Positions 14,288 to 58,903 of a stretch of 64,000 bases of DNA are shown in pieces. Positions within the stretch are counted from its first letter, which is position 1. Every line of letters starts with the position of its first letter. Source of the stretch: Laetmonice hystrix (lineage: Eukaryota); assembly GCA_965235115.1 (NCBI GenBank), contig OZ249436.1:1180001-1244000 (forward strand), given 5' to 3'. Below the pieces are notes generated by a model. That model was given only the letters and a program-made list of their open reading frames with translations. It had not been told where the DNA came from and did not search any database. Position numbers and translations under genes: made by a program.

Positions 14288-15211
14288 CAGGCCCGTAGGC
14301 TGGGGGGGTTACTTGGGTTACTCGTAACCTACCCGCAGAGCCAACCAAGGTCCGCCTAGTCAAGATAAAAAGGTCTGCCCATGCAGGGGCGTGGCACCAA
14401 TTTTTCAGTTGGGGGAGGGGGCACAAATATGCCCCGCCAATTGAAAAAAAACCAGATGTATGGTTGTTAGGCCTCCAATTTTTCATTTTCTTCTGGGGGA
14501 ACATGTCCCGGACCCCGGCCCAGATGCAGACCCCCCTAGCACGCCCATATTCAATATGACCGGACCAGGGGCAGAACTGCACTGCCACTGGTATCTCAGA
14601 AGGGGCGAGAACCACCGGGGGGGGGGGGGGGTTACTTCCCAATCTAAAAATCTAAAGAGATTCCTTGTATACTGTGCCTCAGTAATTGCTCTCAGAATTC
14701 TGAAACATAGCCAAAATGCCCCCAGAATGCACCATTTCACTCCTAGTTTTAAAAAATTCCTGCCGGGGGGAGCATGCCCCCGGACCACCCTACAATCGCT
14801 TCATGCCTATGGTGCTCCCTACAGTGGCTTTGCTGCTGCATTTCACATTCTTAAACGTTGGAACCACTGGTATTGGAAACCAGTTTCAATATCAGTGCAT
14901 GGTCAAGAAACAGCTCTGGATCCACCCTATGCAAATTTATGGAACTCATTTCACTATAAGCAGTGCACCCCCCTCTCGCCCCATGTGCCCTTTTCTCTCC
15001 CCTCAAGTGCCCTTTTTTATTTTTACGAAAGATATTTAAAATCTAAATGTCCAATTGTCTAGGCCTATTATAGCCCTAAAGGCTGGTCTATATCGCGTAT
15101 TTGGCACTGTAATTTAAATTTTTTTCACCCCCCCCCCCCCGTTTTGAAAATCCTGGATCCGCCCAGGGCTGATAAGTAACCCACCCATTTTCAGACCAGC
15201 CTACGGGCCTG
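14288..15211. mobile_element. Composite CAG...CTG TIR element with 5-bp TSD (hAT-like, non-autonomous), containing related inner termini
   Basis: TACAC|CAGGCCCGTAGGCTGG ... CCAGCCTACGGGCCTG|TACAC, a perfect 16-bp TIR. Inner CAGGGGCGTGGCACC (14384) and AAATCCTGGATCCGCCCAGG (~15148-15167) look like ends of nested relatives. Confidence 0.85.
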
Positions 15212-16341: not shown

Positions 16342-16414
16342 TAGGGCCATAACCAGACCTTAAAAAGCGACGAGACGAGGAACTTTATTCATTAATATTT
16401 AATAGGCCTATTCA

Positions 16415-18261: not shown

Positions 18262-21016
18262 ACTGTTGTTACCTCCAACTGGTCATTTATTTTCTAGACC
18301 CCCAAAAACACTATTTATTCGTGCTTCCATCGTACCAGCATGGCTTTTCGGAGGTCATTCATCCTTTGGTGATTCATTTCCAGTTCCTTTTGATTCATTT
18401 CCAGTTTGATTCGTGGAATCTAATCAGGCTACAGTGTCCATGGACAAAACCCTAACCCTAACCCAAACCCTAATAATAGGTCGGCTTCACTGCAAATAGT
18501 CTAACCTTGTTTTTGTTCACGAACATTGTTCTCCCCACTCCCCAACAAGGCTTGGGTGAGAAGAACAAATATGGCGGACTGCATGCCAACAACCTCAATG
18601 TCCTCATGTCAAAATTGGAATATTTGTATATTTATTCAAGAACAGTATTTATTTTGAAAGAAAAGATGCTTAGTATCAATCATATAGGATACCGGTAATT
18701 GACTGACCAAGAAGAGCGGTTAGGCCTAGGTCTATGTGGTAGGCCTAAACACCGCCGCTGTGGCACTGGGCGCTGTGAAACTTGCGGCAGTTGCGCTAAG
18801 CCAAGCTGCCGACGCTGGATACGTCGATCACAGGACGAAGTGCTAGCTTGTTGATAGTTGACAGTGATCCAGAAAGGTCCAAAAAGGCCTTCCCCCCCCC
18901 AAAGTCATAAAACAACTACCAAAGGCATCACGCTGTCACATTTTGAAAGAACTAGTGATTCATCACCAGATAGCCTAACTGTTCAATTCATCATTGCTGG
19001 GTGCAGCCATTTTGTAAGGTTATAGTTCTTGGTCTTTGGATGCTATGAAGTGCTATGGTGCTATGAAGAACATGTTCCAGGTGCATGTTCTTTGTTGTTT
19101 GGATGACGCAGCCCAGCTGTCACGAAATTGGGGGTAGTAGGGTCAAGAGCAGCGCTAAGGACAAGGGTGAGTTTTTGGGGGAGGTAGCCCCCTATTTAGG
19201 GAGTCTAAACTTGGGGAGGTCTAAACTGATCCAAGGACCTTGTAGGCCTAAATATAACCAGCGGAACTATACGCATTGCATAACAGCTTTCTAAGACTTA
19301 ACGTAATGTAACGAAAAATGAAGCGGAGTTTGTTCTCAGATCTAATGCTGTTCTTTCTCGCTCGTCCCTGTGCTGAACGCCTCCTGTCTGCCGCCTTCCT
19401 TCCTGCCACCACAAGTAAATAGCCATGTTAGTCCTTTGATACAAGTCGTCTGGTGAAAATCTGTGAAGGATTACAGGTCTGTGAGAGGCGACAGAAGAGT
19501 TCCGTCCTTTACATCAAAGTTAACTCAAGATCAAAGTGCAGCAAGCCGGCGTCGCCATGACACCCGTGGACATGCTGGTTTGACAGTGAAGCGGAAGGAG
19601 CGCTATTCGTCTGACATCCATGGTTACAATATGTTTGAATAGATTGGACGCCATTATGACCTTGGGAGGGACCACATTTACGGATACTTAGTCTCAGAGA
19701 AAGTTTTCTTTGATTAACACGCCGTACGATATGAATAAACTCAACCCAGACGATAATGAAGCCACAAAGTATACGATGCTATGTCGCTTGAAGTAGGTCA
19801 GCTGGCTCTAGTTGACCTTGAACTGAGTGATTCGTAGACATCCGAGTGACCTCTGTCTAAACACAGGACTTGTCGGATTAGGCCACAAGAGGGCGCTGGT
19901 CGTGGCACCTCTCTGCAAAGAAGGTAGCTTGTCATGTGATTAACCCACCTGCCACCAGGTGTAGGCTACTAATCCGTACGAAGTTGGCGCGCAGGCTGCA
20001 GACTGTTGATCTAGAGCTGCTGATGTCTATTACGACACAACGAACTCTAGACGCTAATCCTCCCGTCATTTGGATAACTGAGGCAACAGCAAAGAGTTTC
20101 TATCTATACTCAAAGAATGCCGTGGGTAATGCTAACTTTTTCCCAAGCTGGTTGTCTCAAAACTCACACCCTGGTCAGCAGAGTCGACATTTAATGCTCT
20201 AGATTGCGTGAAATATATCAATTCTTCCTGGCCTTGGCCATGAGGGTTGGGAAAAATAATTGAGGCAGCCCACTTCTTGGAATAAAATAAATATTCCCAA
20301 GAAAAAACCCAGACCCCCCTAAATATCTAATGGTCGCCCCCTAAGACATCATGAGAAACAAATCAAACTGCTTCCCCATCTTTGAAAAGTTATAGGCAGA
20401 CTATCTGATAACTGCCAATGAGAATTATTACTCAGAAAATTATGGATGTGGCATTCAATGATCTATTTTATTGGGACATGAAGCCTAGAATACATTTCGT
20501 TGAGAGTTTGGCGTCTGGGCGATAATGGAGCGTTCCGGGACCTTGACCTCTGACCCCAAGACCTGACAGAGTCTGGTTACGCTACGTTGACTTACCGTAG
20601 TGTTGTGACAAATAGAGCCGACTGCCATGCACCGAACCTGTGGTAATTTTATGCTTGTCTCCATCAAGTCAGGATTATACATACTCCTAGACTTCTAGAC
20701 TGCCAAGGGACGTTGCAAATTGAAGTATTTTTCCGTGAAATATCTTTCATCAGATGCCACAGTAAATCATCTGTGAGTTAAAGGAGGTTTTTTATATCAA
20801 AATCTGATAAGCCGTTACGGTGGTAATCCATGTTGCCTCGAGACAACTGTCGAGGAGAGACCCATAAAGGCTAGAATTAAATAAAAACGAGATTCAGCAT
20901 ATACACATTCTGTTCTCAGGTACTACTGTCAGATAGGCTGCCAAAATATAGCCGTTTTAATTAAAAAGTCGGTGGTTCCCAGTATAACAATCCAATTAAA
21001 ACTTTGCTAGCATTAA

Positions 21017-21549
21017 AGGTAATATGTCACGAATTTCAAATAATACGTCGTCTTTCAGCAAAAATATGTCTGCATTGCGGTTCTCCGATATGCCCCAAAG
21101 GTCCCCTACCTGTTTATGTAGCTTTGGCCGGCATTTTGTAAAAAAAATCGTCAATTCTTAATTCAGTCACTAAAAATGACATACATGCACTTAGATTCCG
21201 AGACCCCGGGATTTGCAGCCGGCTGTGTTTTGCACCCTTTTCACATGATCAGCGGATGGATCATTATAGTCCCACTCTCATTGTATAGATTTGTTATTTA
21301 CTTATTTATTTTTTTTGTTCATTTATTTATTTGTTATTTACTTAGATGGCGAATTCACCGCACTTTGTGGACACTGCAGCTAGTTTTATTCATTTTTCCA
21401 CATTATGGAGAATTCCATAGCTGTCTACTCGTAGAATGTGTTAACAGAATCAATATGAAAAACAATCAGTGCCATAAAGTACGTCAGTGGTGAGCAGGTA
21501 AGCAGAAAACTGAAGATTTCGGTCGAAACCCCCCCGTGACATATTTCCT
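21017..21549. mobile_element. Kolobok-type MITE (second family)
   Basis: TTAA|AGGTAATATGTCACG ... CGTGACATATTTCCT|TTAA: 15-bp TIR with one mismatch. Confidence 0.88.
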
Positions 21550-21553
21550 TTAA

Positions 21554-22777
21554 AGTAATGGCCTATTCTCGAATTTTTCCAGTATCACACTGGTTCTGCC
21601 TTATCCTAACTGAAGAGAAACATGTAATCTTACCAGATTTGCCCCAAAAGGGAGCTATTACTCGTAATTATTGCGAAATTTGATGAGCAAACCTGCACAC
21701 CTCGATCGGTTCTGAAAAACTCGGCACGAGTTCTTCAGTATGGTGTTTACATAACGTCGTACACAGTTTCACTTCGAGCCAAGCACTGTCCCCCAAGATG
21801 CATTGCACTAGACGAAAGCGAGGCTCGCACCTGCCAGTGTGGAGGGGGGGGGGCTTTCCCAACGACATGCCGCTTGCATGCGCGGGCTACTGAATCAGTG
21901 AAGAATCGTAAGAAGTATGCTCAGAATCAGGATAGATCGAAACTCCGCGTCTATATCGCGGCTGCTTTTAATCGCTGGGTGAATTTACGGGAAGTTATTG
22001 ACTTTCGAGCAGCTTACAATGCCGGTGTTGCTTCGGTGCTAGGGTAGACCTACCACACAGCCAACGTGGTGGCCCCCGGCCCTGTGCTGGCGTGTTCCCG
22101 GTATGTCCAAACCGTCATACCGCCCCGCAGAACACATTTCATCGGCCTTCGACCAGCTTAAGGCACCGGCCCAAAGTACCATCATTCTTTTTATGGAATA
22201 CATTTCCAACCAGTGCCGCAGATGGTCAACCTACGACTGGTCTATTTACGGCCGTGTACGGTGAGTACGCCGGGCGGTAGAGCCGGGCGGCCGGCCGCAA
22301 GGCGAGGCCCAGGCGGCAGAACAGGAGATTACAACCGGTGAAACCCTCTTATGCTGGATTGTCAACAGCAAAACATATCACCCTCGGAGGCCCACTCGTC
22401 CCCCCTCCTGTCTACATAATGTGAATACGACAGATATATTTCGTTGTATTATAAAATATGAGTTAGGTCTGGGCTACTTTGCTGGGTGATCGAAATAGGC
22501 TTGCTGAACGATGAGGACGCCATCTTGTTTGGCTGCGTCATCAGACACTGCGTAGAAAGCTACGTGAGGGAATTCCCTTCCAGTTCAAATCCAATGGTGG
22601 TGGAATCATTGCACGTTTTTCTTTCGATTGATTGCGATTTTCGCTTATACTGCAAGTAGCACGCAGGTATTGTCCCTATTGGACATGGCAAATATTTGTA
22701 CACGTCTTTGGTAACATGCAGGAAGTAATATTAGAAAGTCGTTAAAATATTCCTACATTCCACGCTATACTATGACT
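21554..22777 (+). mobile_element. Probable decayed Kolobok derivative carrying a short protein relic
   Basis: Bounded by TTAA|AGT ... ACT|TTAA with a weak TIR (13/21 by eye). 21901-22047 (+) reads KNRKKYAQNQDRSKLRVYIAAAFNRWVNLREVIDFRAAYNAGVASVLG*, resembling the RVxIGxAFxRWxxL motif I recall from Kolobok-associated proteins. Confidence 0.5.
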
Positions 22778-23380
22778 TTAAGCCAGGTACGCGACTTGAT
22801 GTGGTCGAAGCTAGCAATGTGAGTAAGCAAGACGAGATACACGAGACGCCAAGGTTGAAGGGGGTTGGATGTATAGTAGGGTTTCGGAGGTATAGGTGGA
22901 GTGGAGCATATAAGTAAAGAAAGCCATGTTAATTAACCTCCGAGTTTCCTGAGGGGTTTTCATTTCGGGTGAATCATACAGAGTGACAATATCGTCTCAC
23001 GAGGCGTTTCAGCCGAATACACATCGCAATACCATCACTCTATCAGGATGTTTCGGTAGAGTGCGATTCTTTCTCCAAGCTTCATCGGAGATAGTCGAGA
23101 TTAGCCGAATTCGGATGACCTTTCTCTCGACCTGTCGTCTAAATCGGATTGATTTACCGAAGGGAAGTCTTATCTGAAATAGGAAAAAAATATCCGAAGT
23201 TCACCGTGATTCCGTCAAGGAAAATGTCATATAAAGAAATGATGGATGTTTCCCACGCAGTTTAAAGGAGCACAAAGAGGAGAAATGAAAACTTAGAAGA
23301 TGACTATAAATCATACCCTTTTTACGGACTTTGAAATGTTGTGAATACTTTGAAGCAATTTCCTTTTCCCATATAATTAA

Positions 23381-23889
23381 AGGGGCATGCTATGAAACAC
23401 GTTTTGGAGGATTTCCGGCAATTATCCAACATGACCGTGTACTAGGGATCCAAGTAAATAATCCTACCACAGCATTTTGTCCTCCGACGTGTTTTCGCTG
23501 CGTATGCAGCACAAGTAGGGCCTAGATTCTATATGACCAAACCTATAGATTTCTCCCGATAGCACACCTTCCGCCATAATGTGCCATAGACAACCCCCCA
23601 TCAACCCGTGTAATTGCATACTGTGTCACATCCTGTGTGTGCACTCTCTGCGTGTGCTTAGTCAGCCGTTGCACTCGATCGCCCAGCATCAGAATGCCAC
23701 CCAAAAAATATTTTACGAAATCGACAGAAAAGCGGGCAGGGGAGCTTCATAAACTTCGATTTCTCACACAAAATGAAACTGATAAGACTGTCTTTGTTTA
23801 CCAAGCAATATTAATGAAGGGTCTCTTTATGAAAACAGCAAAAGTTCTTTGAAATACCGATTTTTCACGTTTCCTCATAATATGCCCCT
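23381..23889. mobile_element. Kolobok-type MITE, copy 2 (509 bp)
   Basis: TTAA|AGGGGCATGCTATGA ... TCATAATATGCCCCT|TTAA; highly similar to 9237-10194 minus the nested insertion. Confidence 0.93.
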
Positions 23890-25221
23890 TTAAGGTGTTT
23901 TGGGAAATTAGTCTACTAACAGTTATTATCGGAATTGAAATTGTAAGATAATTCTATAATTCTATTCCATAGTTTTTTTTTACGATTTCAGAAAACTCAA
24001 AACCGGACATGCTAAGTGCACCTGAGTGTATTAGTCTGAATGTCTCGACCGATTACTCTCCAATATTGAGCCTTTGCTCGGAAGTATCTAAATGCTGAAA
24101 CCAGACGTAAAATAAATGAAGCCATAATATCTTCTGTCGTGGTTACAATAAAGATACATGTCTAATGATTGTCTACAACCTCCACTCGTTAGGGAAGGAA
24201 GGAAGAAATTGTTTCTAATGTCTCATTGGGGGTAATGAGTGCGGCGATACCTGAAGCTGACCCCGCAAGGCATGCTGGGTAGGCCTATCGCCGCCTGCCA
24301 TTCAGCCTCAGCACCATCCTTCCTTCCACACAACCACTGGACACTGCAACGCGTCCTCCTATAAACGGGACACTGCAAACACATGTTGCAAAGGAACATC
24401 ATTTCTTTCATGTTGTACCTCGGCAGCGGAGGGATTTTTCTACGACAGGGGATTGGGACTTATGCTACAAGAAGTGGGATTGCTTTTACCGCGTCTTTTT
24501 GAGGCAAAGAAGGCTTGTCAAAAATCACATTTGGACCGCCGCAAGGCCTCCATGTATACTCACCTTTCACAGTAGTGGTTAGAAATAAATGTCCCCCCTC
24601 CCCCCATTCCAAGAAGTCACATGTCGAACATGACATCCGTGTCTATATCGCCGGCTTCAGGCCTTTGTAGGCCTGATATAACTACCACTATCCTTAACCC
24701 TAACGGTAAACCCTAACCCTTTTTGAAAAGGCTAGCAATAGGTCTGCTCACTGCCCGGATCTCAGTGCCCGTTCGTAGTCAGGGTGGGGGCCTGATATAT
24801 CCTGATATATCCTACATCCTCATGTCGGTAGGCTTAATTGCTAGCGCAACGCCGCATGTGTTTAGGTTTTTAGTTCCTCTCAAAGTGGAGAGCAGTCGTA
24901 CTGTGATTGGTCAGACACCGTGACGTCAAATTAGCAGACGCTATGGCGGCATCCACAAGGTGAGCAGCCTCTGGCACTAATATGCTTATATCTGAACTAT
25001 TTGAGCACCAATTGTGTTCAAATCTTTTCTAACTTGCTTAAAGTTTCACGCCTTTTGTGCCTGGCCATGTGCCAACTGGGGTGAACTTTTTCTGTTGCGT
25101 GGAAGTTGACCGTGAATAGGCGTTTAACACTTTGGTCTGAATATATTAATTGTCAATTGTTACAAACTACAGGGTAAGAACTGGGCCCTGCTCTTTTATA
25201 GCTGTTGCTGAATCAGCCAAT

Positions 25222-26893: not shown

Positions 26894-27751
26894 TACCTTA
26901 CATAATATATATATATCCGTTACGCATGGACACCCGTGCCGAGTCGGAAATGAGACGGAATGAATCGTATTGAATGTTAGCCAAGTTCTGACAGAATACT
27001 GAGGGCGCCGAAGTCTCGCGGCACGGTTATGGATTTTCTGGATAGGAGGTACAAATGGAGCGTCAATGTTGACACCCAAAATGTTACGTCACAAATTTCC
27101 CATTGGTGGTTAACATAGGAGGAACAGACATGGTTCCAAAGATCGGCCTAGTCTTGAAGAATTTCGTGTATTTATGTATCAAAATTATCTATTCAAGCAT
27201 AAAACAGGTTGATACAAATATCTGGGAAGGTTTCATTACAAAGGACAGCATAATTACAGAGAAATCACAAGTTGAAGTTGGCAGTCGCCGTTCCGTATGG
27301 CCGGCGCAATGCTAAACAAGCGTGAGCGATAATGAAGTGTCACCAAAACCGACTTTTATCGCGTTGTAACGCAACGTCTCGTGACCTACTTCGGCGCCCT
27401 ATAACAATTTCTGGGTAAAGGCGCCCTCTGGTGTCCTGTAAATGTTCCGTATTCCGCCATGCGTCCATGTCAGCAGCAAGCGTTTCCCGGCATGCACCTG
27501 GCTATCAGCAACCAATCCACATGGCGACCGAATCCTCGACATGTTCGTGTCGACAGAGTTCACATGGTCATTACAACAGTCAGTCAAACCTCTATCGACA
27601 TCTTCCAGACGCTCCTTCCTAGTATCTCATCACCCCTCTGACACAGCAATTCTAGCGATTATACTTGGACCCCTTGATGTAGCCTTCTCCGAAAGGTGTG
27701 AGAGGTTAGGACTTTAGTTCCACGGGAGGCATATAACACGTCACGCGATCA

Positions 27752-29849: not shown

Positions 29850-32605
29850 AACCTATACGACAGTTGGAGACAGAGACCGTCGACAAGGCTACAGATGACG
29901 AACCTATACGACAGTTGGAGACAGAGACCGTCGACAAGGCTACAGATGACGAACCTATACGACAGTTGGAGACAAAGACCGTCGACAAGGCCACAGATGA
30001 CGAACCTATACGACAGTTGGAGACAAAGACCGTCGACAAGGCTACAGATGACGAACCTATACGACAGTTGGAGACAAAGACCGTCGATAAGGCTACAGAT
30101 GACGAACCTATACAACAGTTGGAGACAAAGACCGTCGATACGGCTACAGATGACGAACCTATACGACAGTTGGAGACAAAGACCGTCGACAAGGCTACAT
30201 ATGACGAACCTATACGACAGTTGGAGACAAAGACCGTCGACAAGGCTACAGATGACGAACCTATACGACAGTTGGAGACAAAGACTGTCGACAAGCCTAC
30301 AGATGACGAACCTATACGACAGTTGGAGACAAAGACCGTCGACAAGGCTACAGATGACGAACCTATACGACAGTTGGAGACAGAGACCGTCGGCAAGGCT
30401 ACAGATGACGAACCTATACGACAGTTGGAGACAAAGACCGTCGACAAGGCTACAGATGACGAACCTATACGACAGTTGGAGACAAAGACCGTCGACAAGG
30501 CTACAGATGACGAACCTATACGACAGTTGGAGACAAAGACCGTCGACAAGGCTACAGATGACGAACCTATACGACAGTTGGAGACAAAGACCGTCGACAA
30601 GGCTACAGATACAGATGACGAACCTATACGACAGTTGGAGACAGAGACCGTCGGCAAGGCTACAGATGACGAACCTATACGACAGTTGGAGACAAAGACC
30701 GTCGACAAGGCTACAGATGACGAACCTATACGACAGTTGGAGACAGAGACCGTCGGCAAGGCTACAGATGACGAACCTATACGACAGTTGGAGACAAAGA
30801 CCGTCGACAAGGCTACAGATGACGAACCCATACGACAGTTGGAGACAGAGACCGTCGATAAGGCTACAGATGACGAACCTATACGACAGTTGGAGACAAA
30901 GACCGTCGACAAGGCTACAGATGACGAACCTATACAACAGTTGGAGACAGAGACCGTCGGCAAGGCTACAGATGACGAACCTATACGACAGTTGGAGACA
31001 AAGACCGTCGACAAGGCTACAGATGACGAACCTATACGACAGTTGGAGACAAAGACCGTCGACAAGGCTACAGATGACGAACCTATACGACAGTTGGAGA
31101 CAAAGACCGTCGACAAGGCTACAGATGACGAACCTATACGACAGTTGGAGACAGAGACCGTCGACAAGGCTACAGATGACGAACCTATACGACAGTTGGA
31201 GACAGAGACCGTCGACAAGGCTACAGATGACGAACCTATACGACAGTTGGAGACAGAGACCGTCGACAAGGCTACAGATGACGAACCTATACGACAGTTG
31301 GAGACAGAGACCGTCGACAAGGCTACAGATGACGAACCTATACGACAGTTGGAGACAGAGACCGTCGACAAGGCTACAGATGACGAACCTATACGACAGT
31401 TGGAGACAGAGACCGTCGACAAGGCTACAGGTGACGAACCTATACGACAGTTGGAGACAGAGACCGTCGACAAGGCTACAGGTGACGAACCTATACGACA
31501 GTTGGAGACAGAGACCGTCGACAAGGCTACAGGTGACGAACCTATACGACAGTTGGAGACAGAGACCGTCGACAAGGCTACAGGTGACGAACCTATACGA
31601 CAGTTGGAGACAGAGACCGTCGACAAGGCTACAGGTGACGAACCTATACGACAGTTGGAGACAGAGACCGTCGACAAGGCTACAGGTGACGAACCTATAC
31701 GACAGTTGGAGACAGAGACCGTCGACAAGGCTACAGATGACGAACCTATACGACAGTTGGAGACAGAGACCGTCGACAAGGCTACAGGTGACGAACCTAT
31801 ACGACAGTTGGAGACAGAGACCGTCGACAAGGCTACAGGTGACGAACCTATACGACAGTTGGAGACAGAGACCGTCGACAAGGCTACAGGTGACGAACCT
31901 ATACGACAGTTGGAGACAGAGACCGTCGACAAGGCTACAGGTGACGAACCTATACGACAGTTGGAGACAGAGACCGTCGACAAGGCTACAGGTGACGAAC
32001 CTATACGACAGTTGGAGACAGAGACCGTCGACAAGGCTACAGGTGACGAACCTATACGACAGTTGGAGACAGAGACCGTCGACAAGGCTACAGGTGACGA
32101 ACCTATACGACAGTTGGAGACAGAGACCGTCGACAAGGCTACAGGTGACGAACCTATACGACAGTTGGAGACAGAGACCGTCGACAAGGCTACAGGTGAC
32201 GAACCTATACGACAGTTGGAGACAGAGACCGTCGACAAGGCTACAGATGACGAACCTATACGACAGTTGGAGACAGAGACCGTCGACAAGGCTACAGATG
32301 ACGAACCTATACGACAGTTGGAGACAGAGACCGTCGACAAGGCTACAGGTGACGAACCTATACGACAGTTGGAGACAGAGACCGTCGACAAGGCTACAGG
32401 TGACGAACCTATACGACAGTTGGAGACAGAGACCGTCGACAAGGCTACAGATGACGAACCTATACGACAGTTGGAGACAGAGACCGTCGACAAGGCTACA
32501 GATGACGAACCTATACAACAGTTGGAGACAGAGACCGTCGACACGGCTACAGATGACGAACCTATACGACAGTTGGAGACAAAGACCGTCGACAAGGCTG
32601 CAGAT
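29850..32605. repeat. 51-bp minisatellite array (~54 units)
   Basis: Unit AACCTATACGACAGTTGGAGACAGAGACCGTCGACAAGGCTACAGATGACG; four of six frames are open, generating the 900-1000 aa repeat ORFs. Confidence 0.99.
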
Positions 32606-33679: not shown

Positions 33680-33949
33680 CAGTAAGGGGTCCAGGATTTT
33701 GTAAGGGGGGACCTACAAAAATTAGGCCCCTTTTGGTCTATTTCAATGCTGCATAGCCCAAAGTTATATTGCTCCTGGATGACTTTTGGGCCCGATGTTA
33801 GGGCCTACTATCACGGACAATATAGGAGGCTTTTTTTTAAGAATTTGGTTGAAATTCTGGGTCCGAATAATGCATCTTCTTAAAAAAGGGGAAGGAAAAT
33901 TTAAGGGGGCCCGGGCCGCTTGGACCCCCCCCCCCCCCACCCCCCAGTG
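33680..33949. mobile_element. ~270-bp CAG-terminated MITE, copy 1 (5-bp TSD TACAG)
   Basis: TACAG|CAGTAAGGGGTCCAGG ... CCCCCAGTG|TACAG; the interior (GGTCTATTTCAATGCTGCAT..., GGGTCCGAATAATGCATCTTCTTAAAAAA) is shared with 57095-57368. Confidence 0.85.
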
Positions 33950-34651
33950 TACAGCATTATCATCTCTAATTAGCGGCGCATCTATTTAGTTTCTGCAAAG
34001 AATACCCTGCACATGCTGTCTACCTCAAATCATTTTAATCCTTTTCCTTGAGGACTAATCAGGAGTGTGCACAGACTATAGTTGGCTCCTGGAGTTGTAT
34101 TCCTGAAGGAATATCATGGTCGGGGATGATGTATTTAAGCAATTGAGATTATTGCATTCATAAGTTAAGCGATAGGATTGAAAGATATCACAGGCTTAGC
34201 ATTGATTTATGGTCATAGATACAAGAGCGAGGCTTTTAATACATGTACTTCTATAATCTAATTTATTTACATATTTTTGTGAAATAAGCAATCTACAAAA
34301 GTCCGTCTACAAAGTTGATTTACCGATTGTACAGATAGAGTATACAAGGTTTATCAACCCAGAGGATCAGAATTTTATCTACCCATACTGATACAAATAG
34401 CAAAGATTTAATAAGGTTGACAGTTCCTTTTTACAGGACATAATTAAATTGCAGAGAATGGCTTGCGCAAAGTTAACTTGATATGTGGTGGTGGTGGGGG
34501 GGGGAGGGGGTAGAGGATTCGAACTAATAGATACAGCATCGATTTTAATTAGATAGAATCATTCACGACATATCGTTTTACGACCGAGATGGGTGGTTTT
34601 TTTGCAGCAGAGCGTAAAATGCGGAACCGAACAGGGTTAATGTGTCAGTCG

Positions 34652-35305
34652 TATGGCAAGCCGTTTTAACATATATACCAATTTAGTGATATCACGAAAT
34701 GAATTCGAGATATCTACAATTCATTTCTTGATATCACAAAATCATTTCTTGATATCACAAAATCATTTCTTGATATCACAAAATTATTTCTAGATACCAC
34801 AAAATCATTTCTGGATATCACAAAATCATTTCTTGATATCATTAAATATTTAATGATATACACAAATAAGTAGAGATATAAAAAAAAGAATAAATTAGTG
34901 ATATCAAGAAATGAATTGCAGATATCAGAAGTAGAATGAATTGCAGATATTAAAAATAGAATTGCAGATAATATCACTAAATGAATTAGCGATATCAAAA
35001 ACAAAAGTGCAATTAATGATATCTTCAATTCTATTTCTGATATCTCTAATTTAGTTAGTGATATCTGCGATTATTTTTCTTATAATATATTATCTTCAAT
35101 TCTATTTCTGATATCAAAACAATAATTTCTGATATCGCAAAATAAGAGAATTAATGATATTACTAAATGCATTGGAGATATAAAAAATTGATTTGCAGAT
35201 ATCAAAAATTGAATTGCAGATATCGCTAAATGAATTAGCGATATCAAGAAATGAATTAGAGATATATCACAAATTCCTGAATATATGTTAAAACGGCTTG
35301 CCATA
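34652..35305. mobile_element. TATGG...CCATA TIR element filled with ~21-bp GATATC subrepeats
   Basis: TATGGCAAGCCGTTTTAACATATAT ... ATATATGTTAAAACGGCTTGCCATA, a perfect 25-bp TIR; flanks CAGTCG and CAGTCA; internal GATATCACAAAATCATTTCTT-type units in both orientations. Confidence 0.92.
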
Positions 35306-35356
35306 CAGTCAGGCTCAGTCAGCCGTCGATGTTTGTGGTGGAGATGTCGGTGCTTG

Positions 35357-37876
35357 AGGGTCTGTATCCTGGGTCCCACCGGGAGCTAGACCACCAGTCT
35401 TTTCGTTCACCTTGACCCCCCTATAGCAACCCTTCCAAGGGTCTGTATCCTGGGTCCCACCGGGAGCTAGACCACCAGTCTTTTCGTTCACCTTGACCCC
35501 CCTATAGCAACCCTTCCAAGGGTCTGTATCCTGGGTACCACCGGGAGCTAGACCACCAGTCTTTTCGTTCACCTTGACCCCCCTATAGCAACCCTTCCAA
35601 GGGTCTGTATCCTGGGTCCCACCGGGAGCTAGACCACCAGTCTTTTCGTTCACCTTGACCCCCCTATAGCAACCCTTCCAAGGGTCTGTATCCTGGGTCC
35701 CACCGGGAGCTAGACCACCAGTCTTTTCGTTCACCTTGACCCCCCTATAGCAACCCTTCCAAGGGTCTGTATCCTGGGTCCCACCGGGAGCTCGACCACC
35801 AGTCTTTTCGTTCACCTTGACCCCCCTATAGCAACCCTTCCAAGGGTCTGTATCCTGGGTCCCACCGGGAGCTAGACCACCAGTCTTTTCGTTCACCTTG
35901 ACCCCCCTATAGCAACCCTTCCAAGGGTCTGTATCCTGGGTCACACCGGGAGCTAGACCACCAGTCTTTTCGTTCACCTTGACCCCCCTATAGCAACCCT
36001 TCCAAGGGTCTGTATCCTGGGTCCCACCGGGAGCTCGACCACCAGTCTTTTCGTTCACCTTGACCCCCCTATAGCAACCCTTCCAAGGGTCTGTATCCTG
36101 GGTCACACCGGGAGCTCGACCACCAGTCTTTTCGTTCACCTTGACCCCCCTATAGCAACCCTTCCAAGGGTCTGTATCCTGGGTCCCACCGGGAGCTAGA
36201 CCACCAGTCTTTTCGTTCACCTTGACCCCCCTATAGCAACCCTTCCAAGGGTCTGTATCCTGGGTACCACCGGGAGCTAGACCACCAGTCTTTTCGTTCA
36301 CCTTGACCCCCCTATAGCAACCCTTCCAAGGGTCTGTATCCTGGGTCCCACCGGGAGCTAGACCACCAGTCTTTTCGTTCACCTTGACCCCCCTATAGCA
36401 ACCCTTCCAAGGGTCTGTATCCTGGGTCCCACCGGGAGCTAGACCACCAGTCTTTTCGTTCACCTTGACCCCCCTATAGCAACCCTTCCAAGGGTCTGTA
36501 TCCTGGGTACCACCGGGAGCTAGACCACCAGTCTTTTCGTTCACCTTGACCCCCCTATAGCAACCCTTCCAAGGGTCTGTATCCTGGGTACCACCGGGAG
36601 CTAGACCACCAGTCTTTTCGTTCACCTTGACCCCCCTATAGCAACCCTTCCAAGGGTCTGTATCCTGGGTACCACCGGGAGCTAGACCACCAGTCTTTTC
36701 GTTCACCTTGACCCCCCTATAGCAACCCTTCCAAGGGTCTGTATCCTGGGTACCACCGGGAGCTAGACCACCAGTCTTTTCGGTCACCTTGACCCCCCTA
36801 TAGCAACCCTTCCAAGGGTCTGTATCCTGGGTCCCACCGGGAGCTAGACCACCAGTCTTTTCGTTCACCTTGACCCCCCTATAGCAACCCTTCCAAGGGT
36901 CTGTATCCTGGGTCCCACCGGGAGCTAGACCACCAGTCTTTTCGTTCACCTTGACCCCCCTATAGCAACCCTTCCAAGGGTCTGTATCCTGGGTACCACC
37001 GGGAGCTAGACCACCAGTCTTTTCGTTCACCTTGACCCCCCTATAGCAACCCTTCCAAGGGTCTGTATCCTGGGTACCACCGGGAGCTAGACCACCAGTC
37101 TTTTCGTTCACCTTGACCCCCCTATAGCAACCCTTTCAAGGGTCTGTATCCTGGGTCCCACCGGGAGCTAGACCACCAGTCTTTTCGTTCACCTTGACCC
37201 CCCTATAGCAACCCTTCCAAGGGTCTGTATCCTGGGTCCCACCGGGAGCTAGACCACCAGTCTTTTCGTTCACCTTGACCCCCCTATAGCAACCCTTCCA
37301 AGGGTCTGTATCCTGGGTACCACCGGGAGCTAGACCACCAGTCTTTTCGTTCACCTTGACCCCCCTATAGCAACCCTTCCAAGGGTCTGTATCCTGGGTA
37401 CCACCGGGAGCTAGACCACCAGTCTTTTCGTTCACCTTGACCCCCCTATAGCAACCCTTCCAAGGGTCTGTATCCTGGGTCCCACCGGGAGCTAGACCAC
37501 CAGTCTTTTCGTTCACCTTGACCCCCCTATAGCAACCCTTCCAAGGGTCTGTATCCTGGGTCCCACCGGGAGCTAGACCACCAGTCTTTTCGTTCACCTT
37601 GACCCCCCTATAGCAACCCTTCCAAGGGTCTGTATCCTGGGTACCACCGGGAGCTAGACCACCAGTCTTTTCGTTCACCTTGACCCCCCTATAGCAACCC
37701 TTCCAAGGGTCTGTATCCTGGGTCCCACCGGGAGCTAGACCACCAGTCTTTTCGGTCACCTTGACCCCCCTATAGCAACCCTTCCAAGGGTCTGTATCCT
37801 GGGTCACACCGGGAGCTCGACCACCAGTCTTTTCGTTCACCTTGACCCCCCTATAGCAACCCTTCCAAGGGTCTGT
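35357..37876. repeat. 81-bp minisatellite array (31 units)
   Basis: Unit AGGGTCTGTATCCTGGGTCCCACCGGGAGCTAGACCACCAGTCTTTTCGTTCACCTTGACCCCCCTATAGCAACCCTTCCA; the array begins and ends with AGGGTCTGT. Confidence 0.99.
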
Positions 37877-38131
37877 CTTCCGTGAACTATCTATTGGTGG
37901 TTTTGAAGTAGCTTGCATGCATCCACGTTTGTTTGTAGTCTGGCAACACGTGCTGATGGTTCAACTGGTGAGTATTAATGAATCACGCTGTGGCCAGTTG
38001 GGGCCCGGAGGGTGAAATTTAAGGTTGATGGAATATAACATGAGCGCTAGAACAGGCCCTGGGGTAAAACCTGTTGTACCGGGCGCCTTATTCAAAATAT
38101 ATAGAAATCTGAGCCCTTGGTAGGCCTAGGC

Positions 38132-38647
38132 CTGGAGGTGGTTACCCCATCGCCCTCCCCTCTCGGTGGTACTGGTTGAGACCCCTAACTGGAGGTAGTT
38201 ACCCCATCGCCCTCCCCTCTCGGTGGTACTGGTCGCGACCCCTAACTGGAGGTAGTTACCCCATCGCCCTCCCCTCTCGGTGGTACTGGTCGCGACCCCT
38301 AACTGGAGGTAGTTACCCCATCGCCCTCCCCTCTCGGTGGTACTGATCGCGACCCCTAACTGGAGGTAGTTACCCCATCGCCCTCCCCTCTCGGTGGTAC
38401 TGATCGCGACCCCTAACTGGAGGTAGTTACCCCATCGCCCTCCCCTCTCGGTGGTACTGATCGCGACCCCTAACTGGAGGTGGTTACCCCATCGCTCTCC
38501 CCTCTCGGTGGTACTGGTCAGGACCCCTAACTGGAGGTAGTTACCCCATCGCCCTCCCCTCTCGGTGGTACTGGTCGCGACCCCTAACTGGAGGTAGTTA
38601 CCCCATCGCCCCCCCCCCCTCTCGGTGGTACTGATCGCGACCCCTAA
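38132..38647. repeat. 57-bp minisatellite (9 units)
   Basis: Unit CTGGAGGTAGTTACCCCATCGCCCTCCCCTCTCGGTGGTACTGGTCGCGACCCCTAA. Confidence 0.97.
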
Positions 38648-40319: not shown

Positions 40320-41487
40320 TTCATGCCGGTCGATGGCTTCCGATTTCTAGGCTCCACCGGCAAAAAGTCTGACACTTCAGACTATAGACCGGCCGGCGGA
40401 ATTCCTGACATCAGCAGTCAAGTGACCGAATAGCTGTACAAGCTGCAGTGATCCACTGCATGTACACATCCCTCGGGTTAATCTAACCATGCACGTAAGA
40501 CTGCCGATGTCCGTATGAAGTTTATCTTCACTTTGCAGCTCCATCACTAGCAAATCATCCCTGTCGTGTCTTCTGACCATCCGCCGGGGCGTTCTGGCAC
40601 CCAGGCATCCGACCTGGCTCACAAAAACTGTGAACAACTCGTCCTATTCAGGCAAACTTGGCATCGTTCGTCCCATGTGTTTCCAAATCGTATTGACTGT
40701 TTTGGATCTGGCAGGCCGAACATAAACTAATGGTTTTTTTCGAGACCACCCTGTATTTATATAGGGCCCAGAAATCGACGAGAAAGAGGGCATCTCCTTT
40801 TCCCAGCCGGTATAAACTGGAAACTCCGTTATTTTTTCATAACACTTTTATTTTCCCCACATTACATCCTTTTCAATCATCCTACGATTTCAAAACGAAT
40901 GGTGTGTAACCATTTCCTATAAATAAATCAGCTGTTTTGAAATTGTATGGCTTTCTCTACACCATCAACGAGAAAGGACTCCCTTGTAAAGTAGATGATT
41001 TGAAGGCGCAGATTCGACACGTATGAAAAATGACATCGATAACACATCTCCAAATAGGAACAGAAGTGGAGCGCTGAACCTGATCTCCCAATATTATACT
41101 GTAATCCAGCTTAAATCTAATCCGAGAGTCTGTCTTTCCACCTTTAATTTCAGATATCTCCGAAGTGGACATTTCATTTAATTAAGAGGTAACTTTATAG
41201 TGACATTAAGAAAGTTTTCTGACACCACTTTATTTCTGTTTGCATTACTTCATTTCTTTTTTTTTCTCTCCCTTTTTTCACCGCTTTTGCGGGACGTTCA
41301 AAGCGCTTACATTTAGCCTTGCCGAGCGAATGTTGACTCGGAGCACCAATTAAGGCAGACACTCAAACAGTGTTAAAACCCAATCATAATCAAGGCAGCC
41401 AACACAAGGTGTAGGCCAGACTTCACAGGCGTAAAACCATCGACACTTAACGACTTCACAGCACTCTAAACGTCCCACCGCGTTCAA

Positions 41488-46369: not shown

Positions 46370-46956
46370 CGTGAATAATTAATAATATGTGAAAAACAGT
46401 CTACAAAAGCCATATAATTATTGGGGGAAGACTATAATATAGGCCTATTTAAAGGCTATAGATTCCATAGGCCTACTCCGGTTAGAGCTATTTTTGACTC
46501 AGTCTCTCTGTAGTTGCCATTCTCTTCGACTTATGAGTTATATTGATTGATTTGAGGTTGTTTTAAAATGCATGGAATGGGACTGTCAACATGAGGTGCT
46601 AGCGGGTCCAAGTCAGGCCAGAGCTTCCACTAGGATTTCAAGTTCCCGTCCCTTGGGCTCTGGGCCATGTTGTATCTGTCAAAGGGTTCAGTGGTGTCAG
46701 GTCTTTGACGGGACTTACTTTACTCTGTATACATTAAGAGTAGATGGGATGTCAGTAGGCCTATATTCATTTCAAAAAGGTGCAGTCAAAGCCCTGAGGT
46801 TTCGATATGTTTACACATGTTTTAGTTCGGGTAGCGGCGGCAAGTTCGGTCCGATTGAGAAAATGTAAAGAGACAGAGGTATAGGTGTGTGTGCTGTGCG
46901 TCTGTGTGAGATGACAGTCCTAAGTATATACTATGTCAAAATTCTGACACCGGACG

Positions 46957-50178: not shown

Positions 50179-50316
50179 CACTGTAAAAAATATTCGTAGA
50201 ATAACAGACAGAATTTACAGCTGTATTTGGTGTAAATTTATTTTACAGTAGAGTATACGTCCAGCTGGGACGCCAATGAAATTAACTGTAAAAATACGCA
50301 GCTATCTTTTACAGTG
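50179..50316. mobile_element. CACTG-terminated MITE (EnSpm/CACTA-like) with 2-bp TA duplication
   Basis: TA|CACTGTAAAA ... TTTTACAGTG|TA with internal TTTACAG/CTGTAAA motifs. Confidence 0.8.
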
Positions 50317-54000: not shown

Positions 54001-54758
54001 CCCACCCGGTCTACCTGCTTGGTCGTGTTTATACCCACTCGGTCTACCTGCTTGGTCGTGTTTATACCCACTCGGTCTGCCTGCTTGGTCGCGTTTCACT
54101 CGGTCTACCTGCTTGGTCGTGTTTATACCCACCCGGTCTACCTGCTTGGTCGTGTTTATACCCACTCGGTCTACCTGCTTGGTCGTGTTTATACCCTCCC
54201 GGTCTACCTGCTTGGTCGTGTTTATACCCACTCGGTCTACCTGCTTGGTCGTGTTTATACCCACTCGGTCTACCTGCTTGGTCGTGTTTATACCCACTCG
54301 GTCTACCTGCTTGGTCGTGTTTATACCCACTCGGTCTACCTGCTTGGTCGTGTTTATACCCTCCCGGTCTACCTGCTTGGTCGTGTTTATACCCACTCGG
54401 TCTACCTGCTTGGTCGTGTTTATACCCACCCGGTCTACCTGCTTGGTCGTGTTTATACCCACTCGGTCTACCTGCTTGGTCGGTTTATACCCACTCGGTC
54501 TACCTGCATGGTCGTGTTTATACCCACCCGGTCTACCTGCTTGGTCGTGTTTATACCCACTCGGTCTACCTGCTTGGTCGTGTTTATACCCACTCGGTCT
54601 ACCTGCTTGGTCGTGTTTATACCCTCCCGGTCTACCTGCTTGGTCGTGTTTATACCCACTCGGTCTACCTGCTTGGTCGTGTTTATACCCACTCGGTCTG
54701 CCTGCTTGGTCGTGTTTCACTCGGTCTACCTGCTTGGTCGTGTTTATACCCACTCGGT
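51025..54758. repeat. 33-bp minisatellite array (~115 units) with a recurrent 28-bp variant
   Basis: Unit ACCCACTCGGTCTACCTGCTTGGTCGTGTTTAT; the variant lacks ATACC; no stop in any + frame, hence three ~1200-aa spurious ORFs. Confidence 0.99.
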
Positions 54759-54902: not shown

Positions 54903-56854
54903 GACACGCTCCCATCTATTGAAGAAGTGAACAAAAGTAAAAGCTAAGTGCTTTGAGAAACTTTCTCATTCCGTCACAATTTCTAGATGCCAGACGCCAG
55001 GAAATAGCGGTTTTTCCCCTTCTAAATAATTGAAACGTCTGGGGGAGGTGCCCAGACCCTCCCCGACAGATGTTCGCCTGTTTGGCTCTCGAGGGCCTCC
55101 CCTCCCCCCTTCCCAGTGCTGTATCCGCGCATGTTCTGTAAGTGCCCATGGAGAAGACCCTGAACGCCAGCCTTCAAGAAATCCTGGATCCGCGCCTGCA
55201 CAACACCAAATCTCGTTTTTGCCTTCATAAAGGATCCCGGCGTATCTATAAGTCTGTACGAAAGCAATGGTTGCAACCCTCTTTTCTATGTTTCTGCTTG
55301 AAAGGTTCAAACTAAACATACACCCCCCCCCATTTGCGACCAACCCCCCCCTCCCTTGCCACCGACCCCCCCCCCCTTGCCACCGACAGCCCCCCCCCCC
55401 CGGCCGCCCTATAGAAAGGCTTACCGAAGTACAAAATGGCTCCGATGAAGGATGGAGGATGTGGGGATGAAGAAGTAGAGTACGCTGTATTCGGCAGATG
55501 TAGACGTACACCAGTCATTGTGTTATATATTCACAAGGAATTCACAAAGAAAACTCATATTACTGTGTGACTGTATTACATGATGCCTCGTCTATACGTA
55601 ACGCATTTTACAGCAACTTGAACCGTTCAATCCCGCTAGCAGGACAGTGTTTCGGGAAGACGCAATCTCTAATCTTGAGGATTTATTAACAAAACAATAA
55701 TACTACGATCATCCTCCTGGGTTTCTGTAACTGAAGTGACAAGTAAGGATAAACAGCATGTGATCCTCTGAGCTCAGCGTGTTTGTACGAAGCCATCAGT
55801 CATCATGGCCCTACAATGGCTTCCCCCAAGTAAACCATGCAGTAATTACCGATTAAATCCAACTGTCCGCACGGATAAGCGGAAGTACACAAAAACCTGA
55901 GTAATTTAGAATTCTCTCTGTCTAGAAATAACGCTGAAGGGTGAAATAATTGATAAATGACATTTGAAATGTATTTGATTGAACGAAGACGGTACTAAGA
56001 GATTAGACGTAGCTCATTCTGACCCTGTCAAGTGAATTTTTTACATGGACTCTTACACACTCTGCAAACATGCTGAATGCTGGTTAATGTGTAACTTTAC
56101 GATATCAATCTCATCTTATCAAGGCATAAAGCGTGTCCGCTGATCCTGCTGGACGTGTGATATTTTCTTCTCTTACCGAGGTGAAGTCATAAAGGTTCAT
56201 GGGTGACGATGTCTGCTCTCATCAGTCCTCATCGCAAAGATCACCCCGCCAAATACCGTCCTTGCCTTCATGATGTCAGAAAGAACGAGCAGTCTGCGTG
56301 GAGGGTTCCACTATTGAGGCAGACATAACGTGAAGAGATACGGTCATCCCTGATTCACAATCAGTCTGGTGCCATTAGAACTCTGGACACCGATGTAGGC
56401 CTATTCAGAGCATTCAGACCTGTAATGTTAGATTACCGGTTGGTTGAGCCAAGCACATTGCCTGCACAAACTGCAATTGATTGCAGTGGCCAAGTAAATA
56501 ATGATGTGTTTTGTGAGGTAACTGTACTGTTAAATAAAACGGGGGTGGATGTACCAGTAGATGGCAAAACAAGGTTACTAAACAGTGGAGCATTTGTGTA
56601 CGTTTTAAGGACTTCATTTATTACTAAACTAAGTTTTAGTCGGTAATTGTTATTTTTAAATACCGTATATCAAATTTCGTTTGTAAATAACAGTTTTTAT
56701 AGATTCCATATTGATTAATTTGTGGAGCTCATATTATTACTTTCCAATAGATTTGAAATTAAATGAAATTAAACTCCTTCGTGTACTGGTTTAGAGACAA
56801 TAATCTCAACTGTTCCAGGACGAATGGGAAGATGAATGCGGGCTACTAAATCGT

Positions 56855-57094: not shown

Positions 57095-57368
57095 CAGTGG
57101 GGGACGCTCGGCATGATTTTATTGTGTTATGGCCATTTTGGCCCCCTTTTGGTCTATTTCAATGCTGCATGGCCCAGAGTTATATTGCTACTGGATGACT
57201 GAGGAGACCCTTTTGGGCCCGATGTTACTATCACATGCAATATAGGAGGCTTTTATTAAAGAATCCTGGTTTCAGGGTCCGAATAATGCATCTTCTTAAA
57301 AAAAGGGGGAATGAAAGTTTATGGGGGGGGGGGGGGCGGGCCCTCTGGGCCTCCTGGATCCCCCAGTG
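57095..57368. mobile_element. ~270-bp CAG-terminated MITE, copy 2 (6-bp TSD CATTTG)
   Basis: CATTTG|CAGTGGGGGA ... TCCCCCAGTG|CATTTG; interior homologous to 33680-33949. Confidence 0.85.
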
Positions 57369-58280: not shown

Positions 58281-58903
58281 TAAGACACACGATGATAGTG
58301 ATGGGTAGGAACTGGCTTATTTTTTATGCTAAGACGCTCCCCTAATTTACAAGAGACTAGCCGAGGGTATACACCCATAGGCCTACTCAATTTGGTGACA
58401 ACGGGAACCCCGTATTGGATATGAAGCTATAGTTAGCCGACATCGACGTTCGTGCCAGAACTAGAGATGCTACTATTGTGACGTCCCCTTCTGTCTGACT
58501 CTACTGTTAGATTCCGAAAAAGATTTGAAATTGATTTTTATTAATGCCTAAGACAAGGATTCGTGATTGCTCAATGACGATTGGAAACGGGTTTCGTGGG
58601 CCGAAAACATTCCAACGTGGAGACATTGTACTTTGTGTTCCCTCACCAGTCACGTAGCCGGAGACTCATTCATAGAAGACCTGTGTAGGCCTCTGTTGAT
58701 TCAGGAACCTAGAAGCTTGTTTAGAATTTCCTTTTTAATTAAAATGGTAATACAATATTTCAGTTGGCCAAGCAATATGGCCTCATTAAATGCACTTATT
58801 GGCCTTCCACCAATTGTGTATTTTCCGCTTCCGTCAGAAATCGGCCGGTGTTCCGGACCTGCAAACCTGTCCATTCACCGCCGATATCTCCATGGTAACG
58901 CCT

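What the first reader, a model, noticed from the sequence alone, without database searches (positions are those of the whole stretch)
23516..23524. Identical GGGCC+TA micro-insertion at TA sites in two unrelated repeat families: a candidate transposon excision footprint
Seen: Kolobok MITE copy 1 reads CAAGTA-GGTTCTAT (~9368) while copy 2 reads CAAGTA-GGGCCTA-GATTCTAT (23516-23524). Independently, the 270-bp MITE reads GATGTTA-CTATCAC at ~57221 but GATGTTA-GGGCCTA-CTATCAC at 33799-33807. The same 7-nt addition (GGGCC plus a duplicated TA) therefore distinguishes paralogues in two unrelated contexts. Established: TA-targeting Tc1/mariner elements leave TA-(few terminal bases)-TA scars on excision, for example TACAGTA for Sleeping Beauty. 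Inference: a very active TA-targeting element with GG...CC ends, or another sequence-specific insertion process, has scarred this genome. I did not see a donor element in this window.
Basis: partly seen in the sequence, partly recalled or inferred. Interest (0 to 1): 0.75.

Follow-up and report, generated by a model that had tools for sequence, protein, structure and literature searches.

The report
Transposon excision scars inside small repeats
Two unrelated small repeats in this animal-type DNA each carry the same extra seven letters at a TA site, most likely a rarer form of a very common scar left when a cut-and-paste jumping gene cut itself out, although that jumping gene was not found.

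Summary
Both 7-nt differences are real. In the Kolobok-type MITE the long form is derived. In three runs of one sample, at most 1.3-3.1% of family depth can carry it, and a short subfamily gives a clean TA to TA-GGGCC-TA step. The direction at 33799 is untested. TAGGGCCTA alone is rare (2 vs 0.2 expected), but its 6-nt sibling TAGGCCTA occurs 13 times vs 0.4 in 34.6 kb of non-array DNA, prefers purine-TA-pyrimidine sites and twice has a near-copy in tandem. Best reading (0.6): excision footprints of a TA-targeting element with GG(G) ends, where 2+2 terminal bases give the common scar and 3+2 give this one. Footprints of this format are published for Tc1 and Stowaway/Osmar5. No transposase and no element with TA on both sides of GG...CC ends was found. 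One 397-nt GGGC-ended repeat (27003-27399) is a weak candidate. This scan had already reported the TAGGCCTA scars elsewhere in the same genome (e1-7908793). New here are the 7-nt variant, its polarisation in one family and the tandem scars. Verdict: new variant of a known kind.

The parts
23516..23524 (.). 7-nt scar, site 1 (TA-GGGCC-TA) inside the Kolobok-type MITE; derived allele
   Evidence: family depth drop and short-allele rows
33799..33807 (.). 7-nt scar, site 2 (TA-GGGCC-TA) inside the 270-bp MITE; direction not established
9372..9373 (+). single TA, short allele in Kolobok-type copy 1
57226..57227 (+). single TA, short allele in the second 270-bp MITE copy
23377..23893 (+). Kolobok-type MITE copy 2 with its TTAA duplications (AGGGG...CCCCT ends); summed depth at the site 4,300-10,000 times single-copy depth (not a copy number)
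   Evidence: TTAA TSD and RR..YY termini per PMC9587614
9233..10198 (+). Kolobok-type MITE copy 1 (TTAA left, TTAT right), with a nested TTA-flanked TIR element
33680..33949 (+). 270-bp MITE copy carrying scar site 2
57095..57368 (+). 270-bp MITE copy without the scar
18721..18734 (.). TAGGCCTA followed directly by a one-mismatch second unit: candidate tandem scars; another TAGGCCTA at 18740-18747
38121..38134 (.). TAGGCCTA followed directly by a one-mismatch second unit: candidate tandem scars
8601..8608 (.). TAGGCCTA (6-nt scar form); no empty paralogue in window
15060..15067 (.). TAGGCCTA
16403..16410 (.). TAGGCCTA
18740..18747 (.). TAGGCCTA
19243..19250 (.). TAGGCCTA; no empty allele in the three spanning contigs (0, 0 and 4 added gap letters)
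   Evidence: table 8
24280..24287 (.). TAGGCCTA; one of three spanning contigs lacks 8 letters somewhere in 24230-24400 (place not shown)
   Evidence: table 8
46440..46475 (.). two TAGGCCTA 28 nt apart (46440, 46468)
46756..46763 (.). TAGGCCTA
56396..56403 (.). TAGGCCTA
58378..58385 (.). TAGGCCTA
27003..27399 (.). 397-nt repeat with 12/12 terminal inverted repeats starting GGGC, flanked by GA on the left and TA on the right: weak donor candidate
   Evidence: 4 of 60 simulations give an equal pair

Best explanation
Both inserts are excision footprints of a TA-targeting cut-and-paste DNA transposon whose ends begin GG(G). The element inserts at a TA, preferring purine-TA-pyrimidine, and duplicates it. 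On excision the non-transferred strands are cut a few bases inside the element, so each flank keeps TA plus 2-3 terminal bases, and end joining fuses them. Two bases from each end give the common TA-GG-CC-TA (6-nt gain). Three from one end and two from the other give TA-GGG-CC-TA (7-nt gain), the variant reported here. A 5-nt overlap of GGGCC ends with one central mismatch would give the same letters. Each scar leaves two new TA sites that can be hit again, giving tandem scars. Shown: the indels, the derived state at site 1, the motif excess, the flank bias and the tandem pairs. Inferred: the element, its end sequence, the cut positions and the repair path.
For: Site 1 is derived: depth falls from 299k/338k/316k at 23516 to 15.9k/13.7k/6.5k at 23520; at most 2.8/3.1/1.3% (at least 0.6/0.5/0.1%) of depth is left for the long form; loose ends at 23519 continue as the short allele. 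The same 9-mer arises in two unrelated contexts. Each site argues against the other's local explanation: site 1 has no other GGGCC or GGCCC within 200 nt, and the short allele of site 2 has no G beside the TA. TAGGCCTA is 13 vs 0.40, while AGGCCT with other flanks is not enriched (AA..TT 1 vs 0.68, CA..TG 0 vs 0.68, GA..TC 0 vs 0.36). 20 of 26 flanks are purine-side vs 52% background (P=0.009). 2 of 26 scar sides carry a tandem near-copy vs 15 of 4612 background (P=0.003). Published formats: both-ends footprint taCATGta for Tc1 (PMC3520976 passage citing Eide and Anderson 1988); 2-4 nt plus 1-2 nt composite footprints for Stowaway/Osmar5, and re-insertion beside an old footprint (PMC1925063 passages); 3' overhangs and NHEJ (PMC6943129 passages).
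Against: No element with TA on both sides of GG...CC ends and an 11-of-12 TIR was found within 10 kb spans (0 of 25 GG...CC pairs). No Pfam hit in 67 of 67 non-array open frames of 75 aa or more. Site 2 is not polarised and has a GGGCC 13 nt upstream that could have been a template. Site 1 can be read as GGCC plus a TAG duplication, so its extra G may be target-derived. The 3+3 product TAGGGCCCTA is absent (0). None of the 13 six-nt motifs has an empty paralogue in the window, and no empty allele was seen at 19243. The reads are contigs from one sample, possibly the assembly's own. The tandem and flank tests were chosen after seeing the sequence. Phytophthora authors read a similar TA-bounded palindrome as a transcription-factor site, not a footprint.
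Confidence: 0.6

Rival explanations
1. The scars are transposon footprints, but the only primary product is the 6-nt GGCC+TA. The extra G is secondary: a slip in the G run, a repair addition, or at site 1 a 3-bp TAG duplication of the target.
For: The 6-nt form outnumbers the 7-nt form 13 to 2. Site 1 has a 3-bp TAG register ambiguity against the clean short allele. No TAGGGCCCTA is present.
Against: 2 of 15 scars gaining one base in a two-base run is a high rate, while one-mismatch versions of the scar are not enriched (11 vs 9.3). At site 2 the target cannot supply the G.
Confidence: 0.15
2. No mobile donor exists. A host or domesticated nuclease/end-joining process adds GG(G)CC at TA breaks, a sequence-specific micro-insertion mutator.
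For: At least 15 scars against at most one doubtful intact element in 34.6 kb; no transposase in the window. An earlier AI note on another window of this genome also found no main donor (e1-7908793; unchecked).
Against: The TA duplication and purine-TA-pyrimidine preference are what an integration event leaves. Only 64 kb were searched and no genome is held. Footprints outlast and can outnumber a mobile element.
Confidence: 0.1
3. The motif is a protein-binding site kept or gained by selection, and/or the short allele at 57226 is a deletion between the two TAs.
For: Exact copies are enriched but one-mismatch copies are not. A TA-bounded palindrome was read as a factor site in Phytophthora. Site 2 is unpolarised.
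Against: Site 1 is a gain inside a non-coding MITE with thousands-fold depth. The MITE pairs differ at about 6-8% of aligned sites (31 of 505, 14 of 167), so the few decayed copies expected are within the noise of 11 vs 8-9. Selection does not supply a way to insert 6-7 bases at once.
Confidence: 0.08
4. Two independent locally templated insertions (polymerase-theta-type repair or slippage) gave the same word by coincidence.
For: GGGCC lies 13 nt upstream of site 2. The major allele at site 1 already has TAGG.
Against: No GGGCC or GGCCC within 200 nt of site 1. The probability of a given 7-mer is 7.6e-5. It leaves the 13 TAGGCCTA unexplained.
Confidence: 0.07

Closest known systems
Tc1 both-ends excision footprint taCATGta (C. 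elegans; PMC3520976 passage citing Eide and Anderson 1988; original not read)
   Same: TA + two bases + their reverse complement + TA; palindromic 8-mer, 6-nt gain at a TA
   Different: core is GGCC, so the ends would be GG...CC; described as rare in C. elegans, but here about 0.38 per kb of non-array DNA; donor unknown
Stowaway/Osmar5 composite footprints (PMC1925063, passages)
   Same: unequal numbers of terminal bases from the two ends between two TAs (2-4 plus 1-2); re-insertion at the TA of an old footprint
   Different: plant elements at one locus with the donor known; here an animal-type genome, many loci, two fixed words
Sleeping Beauty canonical footprint TACAGTA/TACTGTA (PMC6943129, passages)
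   Same: terminal bases kept between duplicated TAs after staggered cuts and NHEJ
   Different: 3-nt core from one end; canonical range 2-4 nt; the 3-nt analogue TAGGCTA/TAGCCTA is not enriched here (3 vs 2.8), and the core here is 4-5 nt
PHIS elements with GG/GGG ends: ISL2EU (AT TSD, GG ends), NuwaI (CWG TSD, GGG ends) (PMC4482050, passages); PHISTA (TA TSD, fungi; PMC12730594, section 3.1.4)
   Same: GG/GGG termini match the scar core; one fungal lineage duplicates TA
   Different: mPing/PIF excise precisely and leave no element bases (PMC4561436, passages); ATGGCCAT is only 3 vs 0.76; PHISTA termini were not given in the section read

Membership tests
Tc1/mariner excision footprint | gain sits at a TA and duplicates it | tested here: met
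   site 2 uniquely TA; site 1 TA or TAG
Tc1/mariner excision footprint | long allele is derived from the short one | tested here: inconclusive
   met at site 1; not testable at site 2 (searches found no further copies)
Tc1/mariner excision footprint | core equals the first or last 2-4 bases of the element (canonical, single end) | tested here: not met
   core is 5 nt; fits only as a 3+2 composite or a 5-nt overlap
Tc1/mariner excision footprint | core matches the ends of a resident TA-flanked TIR element | tested here: inconclusive
   0 of 25 GG...CC pairs have TA on both sides; one 12/12 GGGC pair has GA|TA; only 64 kb searched
Tc1/mariner excision footprint | a DD(D/E) transposase of the Tc1/mariner superfamily mobilises the donor | not testable with these tools
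   no genome held; 0 of 67 window frames hit Pfam
Tc1/mariner excision footprint | empty, full and scar alleles at one locus | tested here: inconclusive
   contigs of one sample over 18600-24400: no empty or full allele listed at scar sites; 139 indel rows not shown; one unplaced 8-letter gap near 24280
PIF/Harbinger (mPing-type) excision site | 3-bp TWA duplication and precise repair without element bases | tested here: not met
   2-bp TA with 4-5 extra bases kept
ISL2EU footprint | AT duplication around GG...CC ends | tested here: not met
   the duplicated pair is TA; ATGGCCAT 3 vs 0.76 against TAGGCCTA 13 vs 0.40
hAT-type flank-hairpin footprint | added bases are an inverted copy of the flank | tested here: not met
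   the short allele of site 2 has no GG beside the TA, and the 13 motifs have varied flanks
Kolobok non-autonomous element (host repeat 1) | TTAA duplication and RR...YY ends | tested here: met
   transposase partner not seen

The most novel reading that the evidence does not exclude
This genome is being rewritten at TA sites by a hit-and-run system whose scars far outnumber its visible copies (15 scars in about 2,365 non-array TA sites versus at most one doubtful element). The agent is either a TA-targeting, GGG-ended element of the Harbinger/PHIS side that, unlike mPing, keeps terminal bases on excision, or a donor-less sequence-specific insertion process. The 13:2 ratio of 6-nt to 7-nt scars would then be a fossil read-out of its cut positions, before the enzyme is known.
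Probability: 0.15. Interest if true: 0.75.

Novelty: new variant of a known kind. Interest (0 to 1): 0.42.

Why it matters
If right, short indels in this genome are not only slippage: about 0.6% of TA sites outside tandem arrays (15 of 2,365) carry a ready-made 6- or 7-base insert. That gives a dated record of germline excisions, which are usually invisible. The spectrum of scar lengths predicts the ends (GGG...CCC) and the 2-3 nt stagger of an element not yet found, which is directly testable. It also warns that an enriched palindrome such as TAGGCCTA need not be a regulatory motif. The principle (element-end footprints at TA) is long known, so this adds a variant and a scale, not a new mechanism.

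Tried and rejected
No whole genome was held, so no genome-wide tabulation was possible. Pattern scans for further copies of the 270-bp MITE found 0 in metagenome contigs and 0 in prokaryote genome contigs. The scan for the Kolobok-type MITE gave 4 loci that share only 19-22 nt and are chance matches. The empty-site search within the window recovered only the 33799/57226 pair among 15 sites (site 1 is missed because of the G>A change). TIR searches found no TA|GG...CC|TA element. Four other GG...CC pairs with one TA flank score 11/12, and one-TA pairs at that level arose in 53 of 60 simulations, so I rejected them. Pfam gave 0 hits in 67 frames. One-mismatch decay products are not enriched. TAGGCTA at 11306 is a substitution in a 22-nt array unit, not an insertion. 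TAGGCTA/TAGCCTA are not enriched. The unplaced 8-letter gap in one contig at 24230-24400 cannot be counted as an empty allele. Literature: a search for TAGGCCTA gave 283 papers, and none of the 40 listed concerns transposon footprints by title or abstract start. One search (25 of 646 listed) showed only a trout RAG 3' UTR note holding these words; its text is not held (title only). Searches returned 0. Subscription journals and Repbase Reports are not covered, so absence from print is not shown. PMC9179366 and PMC4455052 gave nothing on termini of TA-duplicating GG-ended elements in the passages shown. Supplementary figures (PHISTA termini, PHIS logos) were not seen and may bear on the donor question.

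Full report
Observation. The window is gene-poor, repeat-rich eukaryotic DNA: 34,664 of 64,000 nt lie outside tandem arrays, and 0 of 67 non-array open frames of 75 aa or more hit Pfam. TAGGGCCTA occurs exactly twice, at 23516 and 33799, with no reverse-strand copy. Both are the long side of a 7-nt indel between paralogous repeats. The first pair are TTAA-flanked MITEs with AGGGG...CCCCT ends (23377-23893 and 9233-10198), which meet the Kolobok criteria of TTAA duplication and RR...YY ends (PMC9587614, passages). The second pair are 270-bp MITEs (33680-33949 and 57095-57368). Global alignment gives 4 indels in the first pair and 5 internal indels in the core of the second; one further row was an end-gap artefact and was dropped. 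Two of the nine are 7 nt long, and both produce the same 9-mer; a given 7-mer has probability 7.6e-5. The 9-mer count by itself is only modest (2 vs 0.21, P=0.018, rank 5 of 512; 10 of 300 simulations reach 2).

Direction of change. No genome is held, so I laid contigs of three public runs on 18600-24400. They come from one sample, possibly the assembly's own, so they are not independent support for the window, but they do sample the other copies of the repeat. Summed depth over the Kolobok-type MITE is 4,300-10,000 times the single-copy depth (not a copy number). Depth falls from 299k/338k/316k at 23516 to 15.9k/13.7k/6.5k at 23520. Rows '7 left out' at 23516 and 23520 take most of the rest, and loose ends at 23519 continue with the short allele. 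Depending on how the depth column counts gapped contigs, 0.1-0.6% to at most 1.3-3.1% of depth can carry the long form. The 23516 row (1.2-2.6% of depth) is a subfamily that already has the A at 23526, so the step is a clean TA to TA-GGGCC-TA without a further substitution. Against that allele the insertion can also be written as GGCC plus a TAG duplication. Site 2 allows only the TA reading, but its direction is untested: no further copies were found.

The wider signal. TAGGCCTA occurs 13 times against 0.40 expected (order-2 Markov; 0.50 and 0.94 at orders 3 and 4). It is the top palindromic 8-mer of 256, and 300 simulations never exceed 3. AGGCCT with other flanks is not enriched. 20 of 26 outer flanks are purine-side against 52% at other TAs (P=0.009). 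At 18721 and 38121 a one-mismatch second unit follows directly (2 of 26 sides vs 15 of 4612, P=0.003), and two pairs lie within 30 nt (P=0.013). These last tests were chosen after seeing the data. No scar lies in the tandem arrays, which hold 2,144 TAs and are mostly highly homogeneous. Against: none of the 13 has an empty paralogue in the window; the contigs over 19243 show no empty allele; an 8-letter gap in one contig near 24280 is unplaced; 139 indel rows were not shown; and one-mismatch decay products are not in excess (11 vs 9.3). An earlier AI note of this scan, on a window 4.4 Mb away in the same genome, reported the TAGGCCTA excess as GGCC+TA insertions with no main donor (e1-7908793). 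I had counted the excess here and stated a footprint reading before seeing it, and I did not check that window.

Mechanism. Tc1/mariner transposases cut the non-transferred strand a few bases inside the element, leaving 3' overhangs that NHEJ joins into footprints of 2-4 terminal bases between two TAs (PMC6943129, passages). A both-ends palindrome, taCATGta, is recorded for Tc1 (PMC3520976 passage citing Eide and Anderson). Unequal composites of 2-4 plus 1-2 bases, and re-insertion beside an old footprint, are recorded for Stowaway/Osmar5 (PMC1925063, passages). An element with GGG...CCC ends and a 2-3 nt stagger would give TA-GG-CC-TA (2+2) and TA-GGG-CC-TA (3+2), which are the two words seen (inference). 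A GGC-ended element annealing through GC would explain the 8-mer but not the 9-mer, and its other expected products are not enriched (TAGGCTA/TAGCCTA 3 vs 2.8; TAGGCGCCTA 0). The 3+3 product is also absent, which is uninformative at these counts. Local templating fails at site 1 (no GGGCC or GGCCC within 200 nt) though it is possible at site 2 (GGGCC 13 nt upstream). Flank-hairpin footprints fail at site 2, whose short allele has no GG.

Donor. None was found. Of 25 GG...CC pairs with at least 11 of 12 matches within 10 kb, none has TA on both sides. One, 27003-27399, has a perfect 12-nt TIR starting GGGC, with TA on the right and GA on the left. Its ends fit the model, but 4 of 60 simulations give an equal pair and it is a single copy, so it is only a lead. 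GG and GGG termini are typical of PHIS elements (ISL2EU, NuwaI; PMC4482050, passages), and a fungal PHIS lineage duplicates TA (PMC12730594, section 3.1.4). But mPing/PIF excise precisely (PMC4561436, passages), so a PHIS donor would need different chemistry. The scar works like a Tc1/mariner footprint; membership is not shown.

Novelty. The footprint principle is known. My searches found no paper describing TAGGCCTA or TAGGGCCTA as genomic scars (open-access library only, listings read). This scan has logged the same 8-mer in this genome and similar TA-bounded scars in other genomes. What this finding adds is the 7-nt variant, its derived state in a very abundant MITE family, tandem scars, and a concrete prediction of the donor's ends. 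Verdict: observation confirmed, interpretation partly supported, new variant of a known kind, interest 0.42.

Noticed in passing
window 9523-9950: A TIR element with a TTA duplication (Harbinger-like by TSD) is nested in Kolobok-type copy 1; loose ends at 23664 show the empty site, and copy 2 has lost a short stretch there.
   Followed up: partly
window 27003-27399: 397-nt repeat with GGGC-starting 12/12 TIRs and GA|TA flanks; possible relative of the scar donor.
   Followed up: partly
window 40740-40790: A TA followed by GGGCCC at 40762 could be the left end of an element; no matching right end in the window.
   Followed up: partly
window 14288-15211: 924-nt element with CAGG...CCTG ends and an apparent 5-bp TACAC duplication; the 270-bp MITE copies also show apparent 5- and 6-bp duplications. 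It holds TAGGCCTA at 15060 and TAGCCCTA at 15071.
   Followed up: no
window 34651-35306: 656-nt element with 27-nt TIRs beginning TATGG and internal 21-nt subrepeats in inverted arms.
   Followed up: no
window 5913-6287 and 50179-50316: TA-flanked TIR elements with CTGT and CACT ends: TA-targeting families are present, but their ends do not match the GG(G)CC scars.
   Followed up: partly
window 18600-19181: Repeat at about 10-35 times single-copy depth that holds TAGGCCTA at 18721 and 18740; one contig is 20 letters shorter over 18931-19090. A good place to test for empty sites.
   Followed up: no
window 19077-20274: Eight substitution sites differ among contigs of the same sample in about 1.2 kb of single-copy DNA, suggesting high heterozygosity.
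   Followed up: no
window 1-5504, 29850-32605, 35357-37876, 41488-44020, 51025-54758, 59630-64000: About 29 kb of minisatellite arrays with 33-81 nt units at 94-98% identity; the 51-nt array at 29850 is stop-free in two frames, a property of the unit.
   Followed up: no
window 21013-21553: A second TTAA-flanked MITE family with very high depth.
   Followed up: no
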